The notes below the pieces were generated by a model. It made no database searches and was not told the origin of the DNA. It saw only the letters and a list, made by a program, of their open reading frames with translations. DNA of 6,089 nucleotides from Escherichia phage phiK, in sequence record NC_001730.1, one strand, 5' to 3'. This document shows positions 1-6,089 of the stretch, one piece after another (positions within the stretch are counted from its first letter, which is position 1; every line of letters begins with the position of its first letter). A program made the position numbers and the translations under genes.

Positions 1-3
1 TTG

Positions 4-31
4 TTGACATTCCCCAATTCCTTATTAGACT
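4..31 (+). promoter_or_regulatory. Candidate sigma70-type promoter upstream of ORF1 (TTGACA N16 TAGACT)
   Basis: Perfect -35 hexamer TTGACA at 4-9, 16-nt spacer, -10-like TAGACT at 26-31 (4/6 to TATAAT). Lies about 30 nt upstream of the AGGAG/ATG of the 64..432 ORF. Motif match only. Confidence 0.25.
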
Positions 32-63
32 CTTGCTTCAACGAAACGAATCAGGAGTCTTTT

Positions 64-432
64 ATGAAGCCCGCTCACTGTCTTACTCATCCCGTACTTG
101 GTTCATGGTTTTTTAAGTGTCCCGTTTATATCCGTTATGAGCACCTTCATCACGGTCGTCTTATCAAGGTTCGCGCTGTTCGTGATTTGTCCCCGCGTCA
201 GCAGCTTATTGCTAACCCTAAAAATTGCTTTGACGTTGTTATTGCTGAGATTGATGTTACTTATGGCTCCATTACTTGGTTTGACTATGAGCATGAGGAG
301 TATGATGAGTTTGAGCCTGATGTTATAAATGGCCTCGTTAACTATATTGATATTCCTCACGTCATTCGTTCTGAGGAAGACCCTACTGTTTCTGTTGATG
401 ATATGGATTGGCTTTATGAAATTGCGGAGTAA
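64..432 (+). CDS. Hypothetical protein (about 122 aa), basic His/Cys-containing N-terminal half and strongly acidic C-terminal half; first ORF of the H-A spacer module
   Basis: ATG 64 preceded by AGGAG at 53-57 (6-nt spacing); stop TAA 430-432. Third codon positions are about 55-60% T by hand count, the same bias as canonical microvirus genes. No similarity to proteins A-H that I can recognise. Confidence 0.5.
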   Translation: MKPAHCLTHPVLGSWFFKCPVYIRYEHLHHGRLIKVRAVRDLSPRQQLIANPKNCFDVVIAEIDVTYGSITWFDYEHEEYDEFEPDVINGLVNYIDIPHVIRSEEDPTVSVDDMDWLYEIAE

Positions 433-435
433 ATT

Positions 436-525
436 ATGGAGACTGTTATCGGAAAATTTATTGCTCTGGCTGTTGTTGCTTTTATGCTGTATGGAATTAC
501 CCGCTTAATTTTGAGGTTCCCGTGA
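436..525 (+). CDS. Hypothetical 29-aa hydrophobic peptide (METVIGKFIALAVVAFMLYGITRLILRFP), predicted single transmembrane helix
   Basis: ATG 436 lies 3 nt after the ORF1 stop, with GGAG at 426-429 (6-nt spacing); stop TGA 523-525. Hydrophobic core FIALAVVAFMLYGI flanked by K7 and R23/R27. Same frame as ORF1. Too short for codon statistics to be decisive. Confidence 0.35.
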   Translation: METVIGKFIALAVVAFMLYGITRLILRFP

Positions 526-734
526 AGTATTTTAGTTTGGTTGATGAACATTATGCTTATTGCCCTGATACGAGGATTTTGCACATTACTCGCAGTCGTG
601 TTTCTGACCCTCGCTACGAGCGTTGCTTTCTTACTGATGAGGAGCATTTTGCGCTATTGGATTGGTTGAAAAACCGTCCAACTTGCGTTAATTCTTGGCA
701 ATCTTCTGAAATACCCTCTATATTGCCCTCATAG
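522..734 (+). CDS. Hypothetical protein (about 70 aa), GTG-initiated, translationally coupled to the upstream peptide ORF
   Basis: GTG 522-524 overlaps the TGA stop of the 29-aa ORF (GTGA); GAGG at 513-516 (5-nt spacing); stop TAG 732-734. No in-frame ATG exists, so the start must be non-ATG if the ORF is real. Third-position T about 50% by hand count. Confidence 0.4.
   Translation: MKYFSLVDEHYAYCPDTRILHITRSRVSDPRYERCFLTDEEHFALLDWLKNRPTCVNSWQSSEIPSILPS
695..724 (+). promoter_or_regulatory. Candidate gene A promoter (PA-like): TTGGCA N18 TATATT
   Basis: -35-like TTGGCA at 695-700 and -10-like TATATT at 719-724, 18-nt spacer. The predicted start site falls inside the downstream hairpin. phiX174 has its PA promoter in the equivalent H-A spacer. 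Motif match only. Confidence 0.3.
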
Positions 735-754
735 TTTCACTACGAGGGCTTTTT
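725..754 (+). terminator. Hairpin plus T5 run, intrinsic-terminator-like, at the end of the spacer module immediately upstream of gene A
   Basis: GCCCTC (725-730) pairs with GAGGGC (744-749); an inner 3-bp helix TAG(732-734)/CTA(740-742) leaves a 5-nt loop; followed by TTTTT 750-754. The 3' arm contains the GAGGG Shine-Dalgarno of gene A. Confidence 0.45.
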
Positions 755-757
755 CGC

Positions 758-2242
758 ATGGCTACCGAAATCTTTTCTGATGTTGTTAAATCTGTTTGGT
801 CGCACGCTACGGCTAAGCACGCCCATCTTCGTATGGCTGTTCAGGTTGATAATCGTAGTCGCCTTCTTTCTGATTTGGTTTACCAGTTGGAAAAACGCCT
901 CTCCGAAGAGACTCATCTGGATGATGAGACTTATGCCCTTTATGAATCTCAGACTGGCCTTTTGGAAGACCATATGGCACTGGTTCGGAAGTGTGCAGCC
1001 CAACTTGATAATAGTAACACTATAGACCACCGCACCCCGTTGGACCCTGAATGTGTTTTTCTTTTTGAGATGATTTGTCCAGGTGTCCGCTATGGTAAGA
1101 CGCTTAATTCGCTTTGGAGTAAGTATGCTGCCCAGTGGCCTGAGAAATTGATTCGTCAGGAGCTCGACATGGTCAAGCCTTTATCCTTTAAGGATGAGGT
1201 TGCCAAGTACATGGAAAAAATGCAGGAAAAAACACGCAAAAACCGCATGACTCAGAAAGTTATCAATGAGATGCGTATTGCTCACCAGAAAGGCTGGTTC
1301 TTTGTGTTTGACACGTTGACCCTTGCCGATGACCGTTTGCAGGCATTCAATGAAAACCCCAATGCTCTTCGTGATTATTTTAGGACTGTTGGTCGAGCTG
1401 TTCTGCGCGCTGAAGGTCGTTCGGTTAAGGATTCCTACAACGACTGCTATCGCTATCTTTGTGTGCCGGAGTTTGGAGGTCAGCACGGTCGTCTTCATTG
1501 GCACGTTGTGCATATGGTGCGGACTCTTCCTTTGGGAAGTCATGACCCTAACTTCGGTCGCCCGGTACGTAATTATCGCCAGATTAACTCGTTCCGTGGC
1601 ATGTGGCCCTATGGCTTTACGCAACCGATAGCCGTTCGTTATCAACATGACGCTTATTCTCGCAAAGGTTGGTTATGGCCTGTTGACAAATCAGGAAAAG
1701 CAATGCAGAGTAAGCCGTATCAGGCGGTCGCATGGTATGTGACCAAGTATGTAGCTAAGCAATCTGACCAGCGTCAGAAGGCTATTACCGAGAGACAAAA
1801 GAAATGCAAGAATCCATTAATGGCAATCTGTCTGAAGAAAGAATTTCGGGTGCGCAGCAGCCGGAAGCTTGGAATGGAGCTCCCGTCAATGGCTCACCTG
1901 AGCAACAAAGTGCTTCTGGAGCTGAGTCGAATCAGCTTCGATTCCAGTCCTCTTTATCAGATAGTGAAAGAGAACGCCAAAAAGCAACTGACCTTGAACA
2001 TCGGCGCGCTGCCTTTGCACGTCATTTTGGATGTGCGCCCGGAAGTGAGAAGCATGTTGAAAGCTATTCGTCGTTTGATGAAAAAGACACCAGAGTTCAA
2101 CTGGCAGAGTTCTATCGCTTCAATGACGGTCACCTTAAAAAATGGGGATATTTCTGATGAAGCACGTCAATACATTATTGATGCAGGAATTACGCCTACT
2201 GATTTGCGAGCTAAAGCGACTCAAACTTTCGGCGGTAAGTGA
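758..2242 (+). CDS. A: Gene A protein, rolling-circle replication initiator (HUH endonuclease), 494 aa
   Basis: ATG 758, stop TGA 2240-2242. Translation aligns with phiX174 A protein from ...DNSNTIDHR... onward: WFFVFDTLTLADDRL, HUH motif GRLHWHVVHM, paired catalytic tyrosines in YVTKYVAK, C-terminal ...ASMT...GGK. N-terminal 80 residues are divergent, as is usual for this family. Confidence 0.95.
   Translation: MATEIFSDVVKSVWSHATAKHAHLRMAVQVDNRSRLLSDLVYQLEKRLSEETHLDDETYALYESQTGLLEDHMALVRKCAAQLDNSNTIDHRTPLDPECVFLFEMICPGVRYGKTLNSLWSKYAAQWPEKLIRQELDMVKPLSFKDEVAKYMEKMQEKTRKNRMTQKVINEMRIAHQKGWFFVFDTLTLADDRLQAFNENPNALRDYFRTVGRAVLRAEGRSVKDSYNDCYRYLCVPEFGGQHGRLHWHVVHMVRTLPLGSHDPNFGRPVRNYRQINSFRGMWPYGFTQPIAVRYQHDAYSRKGWLWPVDKSGKAMQSKPYQAVAWYVTKYVAKQSDQRQKAITERQKKCKNPLMAICLKKEFRVRSSRKLGMELPSMAHLSNKVLLELSRISFDSSPLYQIVKENAKKQLTLNIGALPLHVILDVRPEVRSMLKAIRRLMKKTPEFNWQSSIASMTVTLKNGDISDEARQYIIDAGITPTDLRAKATQTFGGK
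1001..1030 (+). other. Viral (+) strand origin of rolling-circle replication (A-protein recognition and nick site)
   Basis: CAACTTGATAATAGTAACACTATAGACCAC matches the phiX174 origin 30-mer as I recall it (CAACTTGATATTAATAACACTATAGACCAC) at 28/30, both differences in the AT-rich spacer. Lies inside gene A at the homologous codon position (LDNSNTIDH). Expected nick between G1007 and A1008. Confidence 0.85.
1211..2242 (+). CDS. A*: A* protein, in-frame internal restart within gene A (candidate)
   Basis: In-frame ATGs at 1211 and 1220 (MEKMQEKTRKNRM...) align with the phiX174 A* start (MKSRRGFAIQRLMNAMRQAHADGWF versus MQEKTRKNRMTQKVINEMRIAHQKGWF); GGATGAGG-like SD at about 1193-1199. Inferred by homology; which ATG is used is unknown. 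Confidence 0.35.
   Translation: MEKMQEKTRKNRMTQKVINEMRIAHQKGWFFVFDTLTLADDRLQAFNENPNALRDYFRTVGRAVLRAEGRSVKDSYNDCYRYLCVPEFGGQHGRLHWHVVHMVRTLPLGSHDPNFGRPVRNYRQINSFRGMWPYGFTQPIAVRYQHDAYSRKGWLWPVDKSGKAMQSKPYQAVAWYVTKYVAKQSDQRQKAITERQKKCKNPLMAICLKKEFRVRSSRKLGMELPSMAHLSNKVLLELSRISFDSSPLYQIVKENAKKQLTLNIGALPLHVILDVRPEVRSMLKAIRRLMKKTPEFNWQSSIASMTVTLKNGDISDEARQYIIDAGITPTDLRAKATQTFGGK
1804..2157 (+). CDS. B: Gene B protein, internal scaffolding protein, 117 aa, overprinted within gene A in a different frame
   Basis: ATG 1804, stop TGA 2155-2157. C-terminus ...RVQLAEFYRFNDGHLKKWGYF matches phiX174 B ...RIQPAEFYRFHDAEVNTFGYF; acidic, low-complexity N-terminal region typical of B. Confidence 0.9.
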   Translation: MQESINGNLSEERISGAQQPEAWNGAPVNGSPEQQSASGAESNQLRFQSSLSDSERERQKATDLEHRRAAFARHFGCAPGSEKHVESYSSFDEKDTRVQLAEFYRFNDGHLKKWGYF

Positions 2243-2318: not shown

Positions 2319-2475
2319 GCAGTTGATGTTTCTTACAAAAGCTGATTTTACCAACGATGACGAGAAATGGCTTAATGCCTTTGGTAATCTTCTCCGTCAG
2401 TGGTTTCAGATTGAAGATTGGAAAGGCAATCATAAAAAATTGCTTGACGACTTGAAAAGACGTGATTATCTTTGA
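2269..2475 (+). CDS. C: Gene C protein (DNA maturation / switch to ssDNA synthesis), 68 aa from the ATG
   Basis: ATG 2269 with AGGAG at 2257-2261 (7-nt spacing); stop TGA 2473-2475. Matches phiX174 C (..KWLNMLGTFVKDWF.. versus ..KWLNAFGNLLRQWF..). An alternative GTG start at 2239 overlaps the A stop (GTGA), which is where the phiX174 C start sits. Confidence 0.8.
   Translation: MLSSTRYYASYRATLTKQLMFLTKADFTNDDEKWLNAFGNLLRQWFQIEDWKGNHKKLLDDLKRRDYL
2445..2472 (+). promoter_or_regulatory. Candidate PD-like promoter inside the 3' end of gene C (TTGACG N16 TATCTT)
   Basis: -35-like TTGACG 2445-2450, -10-like TATCTT 2467-2472, about 20 nt upstream of the D Shine-Dalgarno. phiX174 has PD at the equivalent position. 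Motif match only. Confidence 0.25.
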
Positions 2476-3032: not shown

Positions 3033-3062
3033 ATGGGCCTTCGGGCCCCTTAAGGATTATTA
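3033..3062 (+). promoter_or_regulatory. J-F intercistronic hairpin (GGGCC-TTCG-GGCCC) plus AAGGA ribosome-binding site for F
   Basis: GGGCC 3035-3039 pairs with GGCCC 3044-3048 across a TTCG tetraloop; AAGGA 3052-3056 sits 6 nt before the F ATG. phiX174 has a comparable GC hairpin in its J-F spacer (TJ terminator / mRNA-stabilising element). Confidence 0.5.
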
Positions 3063-4358
3063 ATGTCTAATGTACAAACTTCAGCTGAACGTGAAATTGT
3101 TGACCTCTCTCATCTTGCTTTTGACTGTGGCATGATTGGTCGCTTGAAAACTGTTTCATGGACTCCTGTTATCGCTGGCGATTCCTTTGAGCTTGATGCT
3201 GTTGGTGCTTTGCGTCTTTCTCCTCTGCGTCGTGGTTTAGCCATTGATTCTAAGGTTGACTTTTTCACTTTCTATATTCCGCATCGTCATGTTTATGGTG
3301 ATCAGTGGATTCAATTTATGCGTGATGGTGTTGATGCTTCGCCGCTTCCTTCCGTTACTACTACTAAGTATCCGGATGATGCTGGTTATGTTGGTACTAT
3401 TGTTCCTAAGAGCAACCGTATTCCTAAGTTTTTGCATCAGTCTTATCTGAATATTTATAATAACTATTTCCGTGCGCCGTGGATGCCTGAGCGTACTGAA
3501 GCTAATCCTTCAAACTTAGATCGTGATGATTCTCGTTATGGATTCCGTTGTTGCCATCTTAAAACTATTTGGTCTGCTCCTCTTCCTCCGGAAACTAAGC
3601 TCGCTGAGCAAATGGGCATTGAAAGCAATTCCATTGATATTATGGGTTTGCAGGCCGCTTATGCGCAGCTTCACACTGAGCAGGAGCGTACTTATTTTAT
3701 GCAGCGTTACCGTGATGTTATCTCCAGCTTTGGCGGTTCAACCTCCTATGATGCCGATAACCGACCGTTGCTTGTTATGCATACCGATTTTTGGGCTTCC
3801 GGTTACGACGTTGACGGTACCGACCAATCTTCCCTTGGACAGTTTTCGGGGCGAGTTCAACAGACGTTTAAACACTCAGTGCCGCGATTCTTCGTGCCTG
3901 AGCATGGTGTCATGATGACTTTGATGCTGGTTCGCTTCCCGCCTATCAGTCCTTTGGAGCATCATTATCTTGTTGGTCGTAATAATTTGACTTATACCGA
4001 CCTTGCTGGTGACCCGGCTTTGATTGGTAATTTGCCGCCGCGTGAGATTTCTTATCAGGACCTTTTCCGTGATGGTCGCCCGGGCATTAAGATTAAGGTT
4101 GCCGAGTCTATCTGGTATCGTACTCATCCGGATTATGTTAACTACAAGTATCAGTTACTTGAGGGTTTCCCGTTCCTTGATGATGCGCCCGGTACGACTA
4201 GTGGTGATGACCTTCAGAAGGCTATTCTCATTGACCATAATGACTATAATGCCTGTTTCCAGTCTCAGCAGTTGCTTCAGTGGAATAATCAGGCTCGTTA
4301 TAATGTTAATGTTTATCGCCATATTCCTACTGTTCGTGATTCTATTATGACCTCTTAA
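3063..4358 (+). CDS. F: Gene F protein, major capsid protein, 431 aa
   Basis: ATG 3063, stop TAA 4356-4358. Extensive identity to phiX174 F: MSN.QT.AER, TPVIAGDSFE.DAVGALRLSPLRRGLAIDS, YGFRCCHLK, IDIMGLQAAYA, SGYDVDGTDQ.SLGQFSGRVQQT, LPPREIS, QLLQWN, TRDSIMTS. Confidence 0.97.
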   Translation: MSNVQTSAEREIVDLSHLAFDCGMIGRLKTVSWTPVIAGDSFELDAVGALRLSPLRRGLAIDSKVDFFTFYIPHRHVYGDQWIQFMRDGVDASPLPSVTTTKYPDDAGYVGTIVPKSNRIPKFLHQSYLNIYNNYFRAPWMPERTEANPSNLDRDDSRYGFRCCHLKTIWSAPLPPETKLAEQMGIESNSIDIMGLQAAYAQLHTEQERTYFMQRYRDVISSFGGSTSYDADNRPLLVMHTDFWASGYDVDGTDQSSLGQFSGRVQQTFKHSVPRFFVPEHGVMMTLMLVRFPPISPLEHHYLVGRNNLTYTDLAGDPALIGNLPPREISYQDLFRDGRPGIKIKVAESIWYRTHPDYVNYKYQLLEGFPFLDDAPGTTSGDDLQKAILIDHNDYNACFQSQQLLQWNNQARYNVNVYRHIPTVRDSIMTS

Positions 4359-4361
4359 TTC

Positions 4362-4391
4362 ATGGGCCTTCGGGCCCATTAAGGATTTTTT
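4362..4391 (+). promoter_or_regulatory. F-G intercistronic hairpin (ATGGGCC-TTCG-GGCCCAT) plus AAGGA ribosome-binding site and T6 run
   Basis: 7-bp stem 4362-4368/4373-4379 with TTCG tetraloop; AAGGA 4381-4385; TTTTTT 4386-4391 directly before the G ATG. 27/30 identical to the J-F module at 3033-3062. Confidence 0.5.
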
Positions 4392-4955
4392 ATGTATCAA
4401 ATTTTTGTTACTAAGCATGATACCGCCATTCAGACCTCCCGTTTTTCTGTTACTGGCAGTATCACTCCTGTTGCGCCTACTGGTAATATCCCTGTTATCA
4501 ATACTGGTAATATTACTGCTGAGCATGCTGTTGTTAGTCTTTATGCTAATTTGACTGCTGGCACCTCTTCTGATGGTTCTTTTATTGTTGCTATGAAGGT
4601 TGACACTTCTCCTGCTGACCCCAATTGCGTTATCTCTGCTGGTGTTAACCTTAGTTTTGCTGGTACCTCATACCCGATTGTTGGCATTGTTCGTTTTGAG
4701 TCTGCTTCTGACCAGCCCACTTCTATTGCTGGTAGCCAGATTGAGCATTACCCAATTGAAATGTCTGTAGGTTCTGGTGGTGTTTGTTCTGCTCGCGATT
4801 GCGTTACTGTTGATATTCATCCTCGCGCTTTTGGCAATAATGTTTTTGTTGGCGTGATTTGTTCTAGTGCTAAATGGACCTCCGGTCGTGTGCTTGGTAC
4901 CATCGCTACGACTCAGGTTATTCGTGAGTATCAGGTCCTTCAGCCGCTTAAATAA
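4392..4955 (+). CDS. G: Gene G protein, major spike protein, 187 aa
   Basis: ATG 4392, stop TAA 4953-4955. Matches phiX174 G in conserved blocks: VRFES, KDCVT.D..PR..GNNV.VG and C-terminal L.QVI.E...LQPLK. Confidence 0.95.
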
Positions 4956-5090
4956 AAGGCCGCCGCACTCCTGGTTATGTGTCTGCCCAGTGTAGGGCGG
5001 ACCGAGCCATACGGAGATACCCGATAAACTAGGAACGTGGAAGGCGTTAGCCGCCTTCCCTCCTGCTAAGCCCAAAAAGGAGCTTACAAT
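4956..5090 (+). other. Structured GC-rich G-H intergenic region; candidate complementary (-) strand origin recognised by DnaG primase
   Basis: 135-nt non-coding spacer (I recall about 11 nt in phiX174) with two stable hairpins: 4981-5002 (GTCTGCCC/GGGCGGAC, 6-nt loop, one G-U pair) and 5039-5059 (GGAAGGCG/CGCCTTCC, 5-nt loop). Ends with the H SD AGGAG at 5078-5082. G4-type phages carry a primase-dependent origin in a hairpin-rich spacer between late genes. Assignment here is by analogy. Confidence 0.4.
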
Positions 5091-6089
5091 ATGCTTGGTA
5101 GTATCATTGGAGGCATTGGTTCATCGCTGCTCGGAGGAATTGCTTCCGGCGGTATCTCCAGCCTCCTTAATAAAATGTTCAGTAAAATGCCAGAACATGC
5201 CGCCTCTTCTGCTGGCCTTACTAATGGTCAAGGTACTATTGGTATGGATACTGATGCTGGTATTCAGTCTGCTATTCAGGGTTCTAATGTTCCTCCTGCT
5301 GGTCAATTGCCCGCTTCTAATACTTCTGGTGTTATGGCTGATGCTGGTAATATGATTCGTAATGCTGGTAGAGCTTTGCTTGATGGTACGATTCAGGCTG
5401 GCTCTGATAAGGTTAAAGAGGCTCTTATTGATAAGTTGGTTGGAGGTAATGATGCTAAAGACCGAGGAAAGGCAACCCGTGATTACTTGGCAGCGGCTTT
5501 CCCTGAGCTCAACCCGTGGGAGCGTGCTGGAGCTGGTGCTTCCACTGCCGGGTTAGAGTCTTCTGCTCAGAATCAACAAAAAGAGATGCTTAAAATGCAA
5601 CTGGATAACCAGAAGGATATTGCTAAGATGCAGATGAATAACAATTTGCAGATTGCTGGAATTCAGTCCGCTACATCTCGTCAAAATACGAAGGATTCTG
5701 TTTATGCCCAGAATGAAATGCTTCAGTATAATCAACGTGAGTCGCAGGCACGCGTTGCGTCTATCCTCGCCAACACTGACCTTACGACTAAGCAGGCCAC
5801 CCATGAAATTATGAGGATGGCTCTTACTCGTGCTCAGGAAACTGGTCAGCATTTGACTAACTCTCAGATTATGGCTTTGGAGAAAAAGGTTTATGCAGAA
5901 ATTGGAAAAATTCATCAAGATACTCAAAATTCTCGTTATGGTAGCTCTCAAGTTACTGCCGCAGCGAAAGACGTTACGAATATGATTACTGACGCCTCTT
6001 CAGGTCTTGCTGATTGGGCCTCCCAGCAGTGGGATTCGTTCTTTAAGGATGGCAAGTCTGATGGCATTCCTCTCAATACTAGAAAATAA
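5091..6089 (+). CDS. H: Gene H protein, minor spike / DNA pilot protein, 332 aa
   Basis: ATG 5091 (AGGAG 5078-5082), stop TAA 6087-6089. Matches phiX174 H: glycine-rich N-terminus, SAIQGSNVP, TRDYLAAAFPELN.WERAGA, KMQLDNQK, IAGIQSATSRQNTKD.VYAQNEML, ARVASI, QNSRYGSS, KDGK.DGI. Confidence 0.95.
   Translation: MLGSIIGGIGSSLLGGIASGGISSLLNKMFSKMPEHAASSAGLTNGQGTIGMDTDAGIQSAIQGSNVPPAGQLPASNTSGVMADAGNMIRNAGRALLDGTIQAGSDKVKEALIDKLVGGNDAKDRGKATRDYLAAAFPELNPWERAGAGASTAGLESSAQNQQKEMLKMQLDNQKDIAKMQMNNNLQIAGIQSATSRQNTKDSVYAQNEMLQYNQRESQARVASILANTDLTTKQATHEIMRMALTRAQETGQHLTNSQIMALEKKVYAEIGKIHQDTQNSRYGSSQVTAAAKDVTNMITDASSGLADWASQQWDSFFKDGKSDGIPLNTRK

What the first reader, a model, noticed from the sequence alone, without database searches (positions are those of the whole stretch)
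695..757. Promoter, terminator hairpin and gene A ribosome-binding site are interleaved
The PA-like promoter (TTGGCA 695-700, TATATT 719-724) would start transcription at about 731-733, inside the loop of the GCCCTC/GAGGGC hairpin. The hairpin's 3' arm (744-749) is the GAGGG Shine-Dalgarno of gene A (ATG 758). Read-through transcripts from upstream would then fold the hairpin, terminate at the T5 run and/or occlude the A ribosome-binding site, while promoter-initiated transcripts lack the 5' arm and leave it free. That would uncouple A expression from late-gene read-through on a circular template.
Basis: inference. Interest (0 to 1): 0.45.

Follow-up and report, generated by a model that had tools for sequence, protein, structure and literature searches.

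The report
Overlapping gene A promoter, terminator, ribosome site
The overlapping promoter, terminator hairpin and ribosome-binding site in front of replication gene A are real and conserved. They are this phage's copy of the combined pA-TH element long known from phage phiX174, so the finding is correct but not new.

Summary
The window is a complete alpha3-group microvirus genome, probably phage phiK.
- TTGGCA at 695-700, then an 18-nt spacer
- TATATT at 719-724
- hairpin GCCCTC 725-730 paired with GAGGGC 744-749
- T5 at 750-754
- gene A ATG at 758

In the 16 aligned relatives the two hexamers, both arms and the T-run are almost invariant. The spacer and loop vary freely.

The same layout occurs in phiX174, G4 and more distant Bullavirinae: the -10 abuts the 5' arm, the 3' arm is gene A's Shine-Dalgarno, and a T-run and the ATG follow. 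The stem shows compensatory changes between clades. In phiX174 the annotated transcription start (3962) is the first base after the 6-nt arm, which corresponds to A731 here. Published RNA-seq describes the phiX174 site as a combined pA-TH promoter-terminator.

Calculated cost of opening the Shine-Dalgarno is about 10-12 kcal/mol in read-through RNA and about 3 kcal/mol in promoter-initiated RNA.

Side observations:
- This genome alone has G in the -35. That change removes the stop codon of a conserved upstream ORF.
- A second hairpin/Shine-Dalgarno/T-run module, with a conserved -35-like TTGACA, lies at 4-66.
- Phage NC35 has lost the -10 and the 5' arm together.

The parts
695..700 (+). -35 hexamer TTGGCA of the gene A promoter (pA homologue). 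All relatives have TTGACA.
   Evidence: All 16 relatives have TTGACA, as do 4 more alpha3-like metagenome loci. 0/6 variable columns without the window.
701..718 (+). 18-nt spacer; sequence variable, length constant
   Evidence: 13/18 columns variable, no length change except the NC35 deletion
719..724 (+). -10 hexamer TATATT, directly abutting the hairpin
   Evidence: 1/6 variable (ID32 has TATAGT). The gap from the -10 to the 5' arm is 0 in alpha3-, phiX174- and G4-type genomes.
725..730 (+). 5' arm GCCCTC of the terminator hairpin (outer stem)
   Evidence: Fold. The only changes in relatives are C->T, which keep G.U pairs. Compensatory with the 3' arm between clades.
731..731 (+). Predicted transcription start (+1) of pA: A, 7 nt after the -10. 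Inferred, not mapped.
   Evidence: Same offset as the annotated phiX174 start site 3962
732..742 (+). Inner 4-bp stem (732-735 with 739-742) and 3-nt loop
   Evidence: The T732-A742 pair becomes A-T in ID32 and mgL023. The 731/743 mismatch becomes a pair by three routes (ID62, ID32 lineage, St-1).
744..749 (+). 3' arm GAGGGC, which is the Shine-Dalgarno sequence of gene A
   Evidence: Invariant in relatives that keep the hairpin. Opening cost about 10-12 kcal/mol in read-through RNA and about 3 from the predicted start.
750..754 (+). T5 run of the intrinsic terminator
   Evidence: T4-T6 in relatives.
758..2242 (+). Gene A (replication initiator), ATG at 758
   Evidence: Annotated as gpA in all relatives.
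522..734 (+). ORF3 (GTG start). In relatives it stops at TGA 696-698, inside the -35. In the window TGA is TGG, and the ORF runs on to TAG 732-734 in the hairpin loop.
   Evidence: translations; variable columns by codon position 21/16/40. Annotated as a hypothetical protein in phage Lilleven.
4..66 (+). Second module of the same design, just after gene H: TTGACA 4-9, TAGACT 26-31, hairpin 27-60 whose 3' arm holds AGGAG 53-57, T-run 60-63, ORF1 ATG 64-66
   Evidence: 10/12 promoter match. (-15.3 kcal/mol, z -3.34). (the alpha3 copy is scored terminator-like). The hairpin and TTGACA are conserved in relatives, but their -10 is weaker, GAGACT.

Best explanation
Positions 695-757 are this phage's orthologue of the phiX174 combined pA-TH element. 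A sigma-70 promoter has its -10 hexamer directly against the 5' arm of an intrinsic terminator. The terminator's 3' arm is the Shine-Dalgarno sequence of replication gene A.

Proposed mechanism:
- RNA polymerase arriving from upstream transcribes both arms. Such transcripts are late-gene read-through, or any transcript of the three ORFs in 1-734.
- On that RNA the hairpin forms. Most polymerases release at the T-run 750-754, just before the A start codon.
- In transcripts that escape, the Shine-Dalgarno stays locked in the stem.
- Polymerase starting at pA begins at about A731, after the 5' arm. Its RNA cannot form the outer stem, so it is neither terminated nor blocked for translation.
- The element therefore resets transcription on the circular template. 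Expression of A then depends mainly on a weak dedicated promoter.

Shown: the motifs, the fold, the conservation footprint, the stem covariation and the identical geometry across Bullavirinae. For phiX174 only: the annotated start site and the measured net termination.

Inferred for this genome: the start site, termination at T5, and Shine-Dalgarno occlusion.
For: 1. Motifs and fold are at the stated coordinates.

2. The phylogenetic footprint in the aligned alpha3-group relatives shows conserved hexamers, arms and T-run. The spacer and loop are variable, and the spacer keeps a fixed 18-nt length. Four further metagenomic relatives agree.

3. Same architecture across the subfamily. This covers phiX174, G4, G4-like L032, L033, L106 and L127, and divergent L036 (52% A identity):
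- -10-to-arm gap of 0-1 nt
- predicted +1 at the 6th-7th nt from the arm start
- SD in the 3' arm
- T3-T6, then the ATG 5-8 nt after the arm

4. Stem pairing:
- The outer 6 pairs are 100% paired in 13 distinct sequences.
- Two pairs change on both sides (C-G to U-A and U-A to C-G) between the alpha3 clade and the phiX/G4 clades.
- 0 of 500 shuffles reach the observed covariation score.
- Within the alpha3 group there is one double change, and three independent gains of the 731/743 pair.

5. The phiX174 record annotates the start site at 3962, the first nt after GCCTCC 3956-3961.

6. Literature:
- The TH 3' stem overlaps the gene A ribosome-binding site (10.64898/2026.07.25.740675).

7. SD opening energy is 9-16 kcal/mol in read-through RNA and 1.7-6 from the predicted start, in 14 genomes.

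8. Natural deletion in NC35. One 29-nt deletion removes the -10 and the 5' arm together and leaves the SD open (3.8 kcal/mol). This is the combination the model predicts to be tolerable.
Against: - No transcript mapping exists for this phage or its clade in anything I could reach.
- The promoter motif alone is not above chance in the window.
- This genome's -35 is TTGGCA with an 18-nt spacer, so pA may be weak here.
- The hairpin fails the simple terminator pattern, and T5 followed by CGC is a modest U-tract.
- In phiX174 saturation mutagenesis only 3 of 23 5'-stem mutations are detrimental, against 17 of 27 in the 3' stem. Pairing as such therefore contributes little to laboratory fitness. 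Conservation of the 3' arm could be explained by the SD alone.
- Most covariation reduces to one clade split, so it represents few independent events. Covariation within the alpha3 group is weak (covariation score reached by 18/500 shuffles).
- NC35 shows that the promoter plus arm is dispensable.
- In this genome, ribosomes on the extended ORF3 would stop inside the loop and could melt the hairpin.
Confidence: 0.65

Rival explanations
1. The hairpin is only the last late-transcript terminator and 3'-end stabiliser. Its overlap with the promoter and the Shine-Dalgarno is a by-product of genome compaction. It does not discriminate between read-through and promoter-initiated RNA at the level of translation.
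For: - phiX174 5'-stem mutations are mostly neutral, while 3'-stem/RBS mutations are detrimental.
- phiX174 terminators are leaky, and read-through RNA reaches gene A.
- NC35 is viable without the arm.
Against: - The exact geometry is kept in every lineage examined, down to 52% A identity. That geometry is: -10 abutting the arm, +1 just after the arm, SD inside the 3' arm.
- When the SD changed from GGAGG to GAGGG, the 5' arm changed with it.
- The computed 7-10 kcal/mol difference in SD accessibility follows from the structure whether or not it was selected for.
Confidence: 0.2
2. The conserved stem-loop acts mainly in the single-stranded viral DNA. It would be part of the H-A region signal implicated in complementary-strand synthesis or incompatibility (the phiX174 'reduction sequence'). 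Its promoter, terminator and SD appearance would be secondary.
For: - The phiX174 reduction effect maps to a 495-nt fragment spanning the end of H, the H-A spacer and the start of A.
- Parallel substitutions arise in that 64-nt spacer in chemostats. The authors could not decide between a replication and a termination effect.
- The hairpin also folds as DNA: -7.7 kcal/mol, z -3.54.
Against: - The two 5'-arm substitutions in relatives are both C->T opposite G. That keeps an RNA G.U pair but weakens a DNA stem.
- The T-run, the fixed 18-nt spacer, both hexamers and the distance to the ATG are conserved, and a DNA hairpin function does not explain these.
- NC35 lacks the stem.
Confidence: 0.08
3. 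In this particular genome pA is crippled (TTGGCA). Gene A is then expressed chiefly from upstream transcripts. Ribosomes translating the extended ORF3 terminate at TAG 732-734 in the loop, hold the hairpin open, suppress termination and expose the SD. Gene A would thus be translationally coupled to ORF3.
For: - G698 is unique among the 21 alpha3-group sequences compared.
- It converts the conserved ORF3 stop TGA 696-698 to TGG and extends the ORF to the loop.
- The ORF3 stop is 24 nt before the A start codon.
- NC35 shows that A can be expressed without the -10.
Against: - TTGGCA still matches 5 of 6, and the -10 and spacer are intact.
- G698 may be a sequencing error or a laboratory variant. 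The 1992 alpha3 record differs from the re-sequenced alpha3 at 3 positions in 770 nt of this region, including an indel that breaks ORF1.
- No exact match to the variant exists in the viral contig collection.
- Translation of ORF3 itself is unproven.
Confidence: 0.07

Closest known systems
phiX174 combined pA-TH element (H-A intergenic region, nt 3927-3980)
   Same: - The order of parts is identical: TTGACA-type -35, a -10 directly abutting a GC-rich 6-8 bp stem, a 3' arm containing gene A's Shine-Dalgarno, a T-run, then the A ATG.
- The annotated start site is just after the 5' arm.
- It lies in the same position relative to gene A, in the same virus subfamily.
   Different: - The arm sequence is GCCCTC/GAGGGC instead of GCCTCC(AA)/(TT)GGAGGC, which is a compensated swap.
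- The stem has an interior mismatch plus an inner 4-bp helix, rather than a 4-nt loop.
- The spacer is 18 nt against 17, the run is T5 against T6, and 3 extra nt (CGC) precede the ATG.
- The element lies 694 nt after gene H, not 10 nt after it, because three ORFs intervene.
- A second similar module sits directly after H.
G4 and G4-like H-A elements
   Same: TTGACT/TTGACA, an 18-nt spacer in G4, TAATAT directly abutting GCCTCC, an 8-nt loop, GGAGGC, a T-run, ATG.
   Different: Simple 6-bp stem, shorter T-runs (3-4), and a short H-A spacer with no inserted ORFs.
IS10/Tn10 'fold-back inhibition' of transposase translation on externally initiated transcripts (recalled from memory; Davis, Simons and Kleckner 1985; not checked here)
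   Same: Same logic. Read-through RNA contains an upstream segment that pairs with the ribosome-binding site. RNA from the element's own promoter starts downstream of that segment and is translatable.
   Different: An unrelated element with no terminator function in the pairing. The resemblance is one of mechanism only and rests on recall.

Membership tests
phiX174-type pA-TH combined promoter-terminator (Bullavirinae) | Sigma-70-type -35 and -10 upstream of gene A with a 16-18 nt spacer | tested here: met
   TTGGCA, 18 nt, TATATT, 10/12 match. 11/12 in alpha3. Hexamers conserved and spacer variable.
phiX174-type pA-TH combined promoter-terminator (Bullavirinae) | The end of the promoter is immediately followed by the terminator stem | tested here: met
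   The gap from the -10 to the 5' arm is 0 nt here and in phiX174, G4, L032 and L033, and 1 nt in L036. Described in these words for phiX174.
phiX174-type pA-TH combined promoter-terminator (Bullavirinae) | The 3' stem contains the gene A ribosome-binding site | tested here: met
   GAGGG 744-748 is the only SD-like sequence before ATG 758. phiX174 has GGAGG in the 3' stem.
phiX174-type pA-TH combined promoter-terminator (Bullavirinae) | Transcription start lies inside the hairpin, after the 5' arm | not testable with these tools
   Only predicted (A731, which is the -10 end plus 7). The phiX174 annotation at 3962 has the same offset.
phiX174-type pA-TH combined promoter-terminator (Bullavirinae) | Net termination of upstream transcription across the element | not testable with these tools
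   Measured only for phiX174: 0.29-fold by RNA-seq and 0.7-fold by qPCR.
phiX174-type pA-TH combined promoter-terminator (Bullavirinae) | Orthologous position, directly upstream of gene A in a Bullavirinae genome | tested here: met
   The genome is alpha3-group: 94% identical to St-1 and 90.5% to alpha3. The element is conserved in front of gpA in all relatives except NC35, which carries a deletion.
Intrinsic (Rho-independent) terminator | GC-rich stem, short loop, U-tract immediately 3' of the stem | tested here: inconclusive
   Stem -13 to -14 kcal/mol with 5 G-C pairs, then T5. The simple consensus scan does not report it, because of the interior mismatch and 13-nt 'loop'.

The most novel reading that the evidence does not exclude
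In this genome a single A-to-G change inside the -35 hexamer (position 698) both weakens pA and deletes the stop codon of the conserved upstream ORF3. Ribosomes would then run through the promoter and terminate in the loop of the terminator. Gene A control would switch from 'own promoter, insulated by a terminator' to translation-coupled anti-termination and Shine-Dalgarno unmasking.

More broadly, alpha3-group phages would carry two tandem pA-TH-type insulator modules, at 4-63 and 695-757. These would bracket a three-gene accessory cassette that is still treated as an 'intergenic region' in most records.
Probability: 0.1. Interest if true: 0.45.

Novelty: already known. Interest (0 to 1): 0.18.

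Why it matters
The element shows how a tiny circular genome with no dedicated regulators keeps its replication initiator at a low level, set by its own promoter, despite strong late transcription running round the circle. One roughly 60-nt stretch serves as promoter, terminator and ribosome-binding site.

This has been understood for phiX174 for decades, so finding it in an alpha3-group genome mainly confirms deep conservation across Bullavirinae. The useful additions are comparative:
- the compensated arm swap between clades
- the natural NC35 deletion, which removes the promoter -10 and the occluding arm together
- a clean, testable prediction that Shine-Dalgarno accessibility differs by 7-10 kcal/mol between the two transcript classes

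Tried and rejected
- **Rfam.** A permissive-threshold search of the whole window gave no match.
- **Upstream ORFs.** PHROGs, Pfam and PDB-sequence searches of ORF1-3 gave nothing significant.
- **Which module is the phiX174 orthologue.** I tried to decide between 4-66 and 692-760 by pairwise alignment against shuffles. Module 1 against phiX gave z 3.2 and module 2 against G4 gave z 4.7. The sequences are too short and motif-driven to decide.
- **Covariation within the alpha3 group.** Weak on its own (18/500 shuffles). Only the cross-clade alignment is clear.
- **Exact-match search for the window's TTGGCA variant** in viral contigs: no hit.
- **Metagenome scan.** It returned mostly phiX174 spike-in copies and only 4 new alpha3-like loci.
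- **Very divergent A homologues** (L057, L058; 35-36% identity). The gene start could not be placed, so they were left out.
- **Papers not held** in the library: Rokyta 2006 and van der Avoort 1984. No paper describing alpha3 or phiK promoters was found. I could not check what Kodaira et al. 1992 said about this element.
- **Rejected idea:** that NC35 creates a new promoter at the deletion junction. No promoter-like site is found in its first 800 nt.

Full report
**What the window is.**
The 6089-nt window has the gene order of a complete Bullavirinae genome:
- A, 758-2242
- F, 3063-4358
- G, 4392-4955
- H, 5091-6089, with the smaller genes lying between A and F

Over its full length it is 94.0% identical to phage St-1, 93.4% to Lilleven and 90.5% to alpha3. 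No record in the phage collection is identical. Phage phiK (X60323) is listed in the literature at exactly 6089 bp, and St-1 is described as most similar to phiK and alpha3. The window is therefore very probably phiK, though I could not compare it with that record.

**Checking the observation.**
- TTGGCA 695-700, then an 18-nt spacer
- TATATT 719-724
- GCCCTC 725-730 and GAGGGC 744-749
- TTTTT 750-754
- ATG 758

As RNA, 715-765 folds into the 6-bp outer stem, an A731/C743 mismatch, an inner 4-bp stem and a 3-nt loop. The energy is -14.2 kcal/mol, z = -3.19.

The motifs by themselves are not statistically remarkable. The window holds 10 promoter-like sites against 9.4 expected, although this site is one of the two best on the + strand at 10/12. 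The simple terminator pattern does not pick up the hairpin because of its interior mismatch. A looser scan lists it among 8 hairpin-plus-T-run sites on the + strand.

**Conservation within the alpha3 group.**
I aligned the H-A interval of 16 relatives. The footprint is that of a functional promoter-terminator:
- -35: 0/6 variable columns among relatives
- spacer: 13/18 variable, but always 18 nt long
- -10: 1/6
- 5' arm: 2/6
- inner stem and loop: 9/13
- 3' arm: 0/6
- T-run: 0/5
- the three bases before the ATG: 3/3

Both 5'-arm substitutions are C->T opposite G, which keeps an RNA wobble pair.

In the inner stem, T732-A742 becomes A-T in the ID32 lineage. The 731/743 mismatch is converted to a pair three different ways, in ID62, the ID32 lineage and St-1. 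Taken alone this covariation is weak (18/500 shuffles).

Four more alpha3-like metagenomic loci show the same pattern, all with TTGACA.

**Conservation across the subfamily.**
The same design is present in:
- phiX174: TTGACA, 17 nt, TTTCAT, GCCTCCAA atct TTGGAGGC, T6, ATG
- G4: TTGACT, 18 nt, TAATAT, GCCTCC, 8-nt loop, GGAGGC, T4, c, ATG
- G4-like genomes L032, L033, L106 and L127
- a divergent genome, L036, with only 52% A-protein identity

In all of them the -10 abuts the 5' arm with a gap of 0-1 nt. The position 7 nt after the -10 is then the first base beyond the 6-nt arm. The Shine-Dalgarno lies in the 3' arm, and a T-run and the ATG follow within 5-8 nt.

In a 13-sequence cross-clade alignment the six outer pairs are paired in 100% of cells. 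Two pairs change on both sides between the alpha3 clade (C-G, U-A) and the phiX/G4 clades (U-A, C-G). No shuffle out of 500 reaches the observed covariation score, and slid registers drop to 31-67% paired. This is essentially one clade split, so it counts as few events. It does show that when the Shine-Dalgarno changed from GGAGG to GAGGG, the opposite arm changed with it.

**What is already known.**
- The phiX174 RefSeq record annotates a transcription start at 3962. That is the first base after the arm GCCTCC 3956-3961.
[quoted passage not shown] They report a net 0.29-fold change in transcription across the combined element, which 'resets' transcription before gene A (10.1101/2020.03.05.979765).
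- A 2026 saturation-mutagenesis preprint notes that the TH 3' stem overlaps the gene A ribosome-binding site. It finds 17 of 27 mutations detrimental in the 3' stem against 3 of 23 in the 5' stem (10.64898/2026.07.25.740675).
- From memory, not checked here: the original phiX174 sequence papers already placed the in vitro A mRNA start (pppAAAUCUUGG) inside this hairpin.

**Mechanism and how far it is supported here.**
I computed the free energy needed to unpair the six Shine-Dalgarno-arm bases.
- In read-through RNA it is 10-12 kcal/mol.
- In RNA starting at 729-733 it is 3.0-3.5 kcal/mol.
- Across 14 genomes the values are 9-16 and 1.7-6 kcal/mol respectively.

The model is thus thermodynamically sound. 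By homology its transcriptional half (start site and termination) has experimental backing in phiX174. The translational half (occlusion) remains an inference. The tolerance of phiX174 to 5'-stem mutations shows that pairing contributes little to fitness under laboratory conditions.

A natural experiment points the same way as the model. Phage NC35 carries one 29-nt deletion that removes the -10 and the 5' arm together. It leaves the -35, the Shine-Dalgarno (3.8 kcal/mol to open) and the T-run. No promoter-like site remains in its first 800 nt. Its gene A must therefore be expressed from upstream transcripts, which is feasible only because the occluding and terminating arm is gone too.

1. The 757-nt 'H-A intergenic region' holds three conserved ORFs:
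   - ORF1, 64-432
   - ORF2, 436-525, a 29-residue hydrophobic peptide
   - ORF3, GTG at 522, overlapping the ORF2 stop in GTGA

   Variable columns are in excess at third codon positions in ORF1 (46/34/99) and ORF3 (21/16/40). They are annotated as hypothetical proteins in Lilleven and mentioned as putative genes for St-1. They match no Pfam, PHROG or PDB family.
2. In every relative ORF3 ends at a TGA that lies inside the -35 hexamer (TTGACA). The window alone has TTGGCA, so TGA becomes TGG. ORF3 then continues for 12 codons to TAG 732-734, in the hairpin loop. This may be real or an old sequencing error. The 1992 alpha3 record differs from the re-sequenced alpha3 at 3 of 770 positions here, one of which breaks ORF1.
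3. Directly after gene H there is a second module of the same design:
   - TTGACA 4-9 and TAGACT 26-31
   - hairpin 27-60 (-15.3 kcal/mol, z -3.34), whose 3' arm carries the ORF1 Shine-Dalgarno AGGAG
   - a T-run, then ATG 64

   In alpha3 this hairpin is scored as terminator-like, while the -10 is weaker. One pair (G35-C52) changes to A-T in NC28 and MG945254.

   Late transcripts would therefore meet two such elements before reaching gene A.

**Rivals.**
- The hairpin could be a plain terminator whose overlaps are only compaction.
- It could act in the single-stranded DNA, as part of the H-A 'reduction sequence' region.
- In this genome, gene A could be coupled to ORF3 translation.

None of these explains the conserved -10/arm/+1 geometry and the compensated arm change as well as the pA-TH model does. 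None is excluded by experiment.

**Verdict.**
The element is the orthologue of an already described system, so interest is low. The side observations are modestly interesting and cheap to test: the stop codon within the -35, the second module, and the NC35 deletion.

Noticed in passing
window 695-700 and 522-734: In all 16 aligned relatives the stop codon of conserved ORF3 is the TGA inside the -35 hexamer TTGACA. The window alone has TTGGCA, so ORF3 reads on for 12 codons to TAG 732-734 in the terminator loop. This could be a real variant or an old sequencing error.
   Followed up: partly
window 64-432, 436-525, 522-698: The 'H-A intergenic region' contains three conserved ORFs: a 122-aa protein, a 29-aa hydrophobic peptide and a 58-aa protein. 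Third-codon-position variation is in excess in ORF1 and ORF3, ORF2 and ORF3 overlap in GTGA, and Shine-Dalgarno sequences are conserved. There is no Pfam, PHROG or PDB match. Most GenBank records leave them unannotated.
   Followed up: partly
window 4-66: A second module sits directly after gene H, with hairpin, Shine-Dalgarno, T-run and ATG in the same layout as the gene A element, preceded by promoter-like hexamers. It comprises TTGACA 4-9, TAGACT 26-31, hairpin 27-60, AGGAG 53-57, T 60-63 and the ORF1 ATG at 64. The 63-nt distance from the H stop to ORF1 equals the phiX174 H-A spacer length.
   Followed up: partly
L014 (phage NC35), about 695-729; corresponds to window 702-730: A 29-nt deletion removes the promoter spacer, the -10 and the hairpin 5' arm in one event. 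The 3' arm is also changed to GAGGAC. No promoter-like site is left in the first 800 nt.
   Followed up: partly
window 3033-3059 and 4362-4388: The J-F and F-G spacers carry an almost identical 26-nt unit, ATGGGCCTTCGGGCCC(C/A)TTAAGGATT. It is a GGGCC/GGCCC hairpin followed by the next gene's Shine-Dalgarno. The F-G copy is followed by T6.
   Followed up: no
L001 versus L134 (alpha3 X60322 versus DQ085810), positions 192, 335, 338; L011 (St-1) ORF1: The 1992 alpha3 record has a 1-nt gap that breaks ORF1, and the re-sequenced alpha3 restores it. St-1 has a different 1-nt gap in ORF1, so ORF1 is either dispensable there or mis-sequenced.
   Followed up: partly
window 1-1000 versus the whole window: The first 1000 nt are closest to ID21 (90%) and NC28-like in the promoter spacer. 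The whole genome is closest to St-1 (94%). This suggests a recombinant H-A region.
   Followed up: no
window 2444-2472: The promoter-like site TTGACG, 17 nt, TATCTT lies just upstream of gene D (ATG 2502). This is where the phiX174 pD homologue would be expected.
   Followed up: no
window 4956-5090: The G-H spacer is long (135 nt) and rich in GC palindromes. From memory, it is the primase-dependent complementary-strand origin of St-1, phiK and alpha3. Not examined.
   Followed up: no
L062-L131 (metagenome contig FUFK010037421.1, 327,964 nt): One metagenome contig consists of dozens of tandem phiX174 genome copies. It is presumably a sequencing spike-in assembly artefact. One copy (L089) has a 1-nt insertion in the TH loop.
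   Followed up: no
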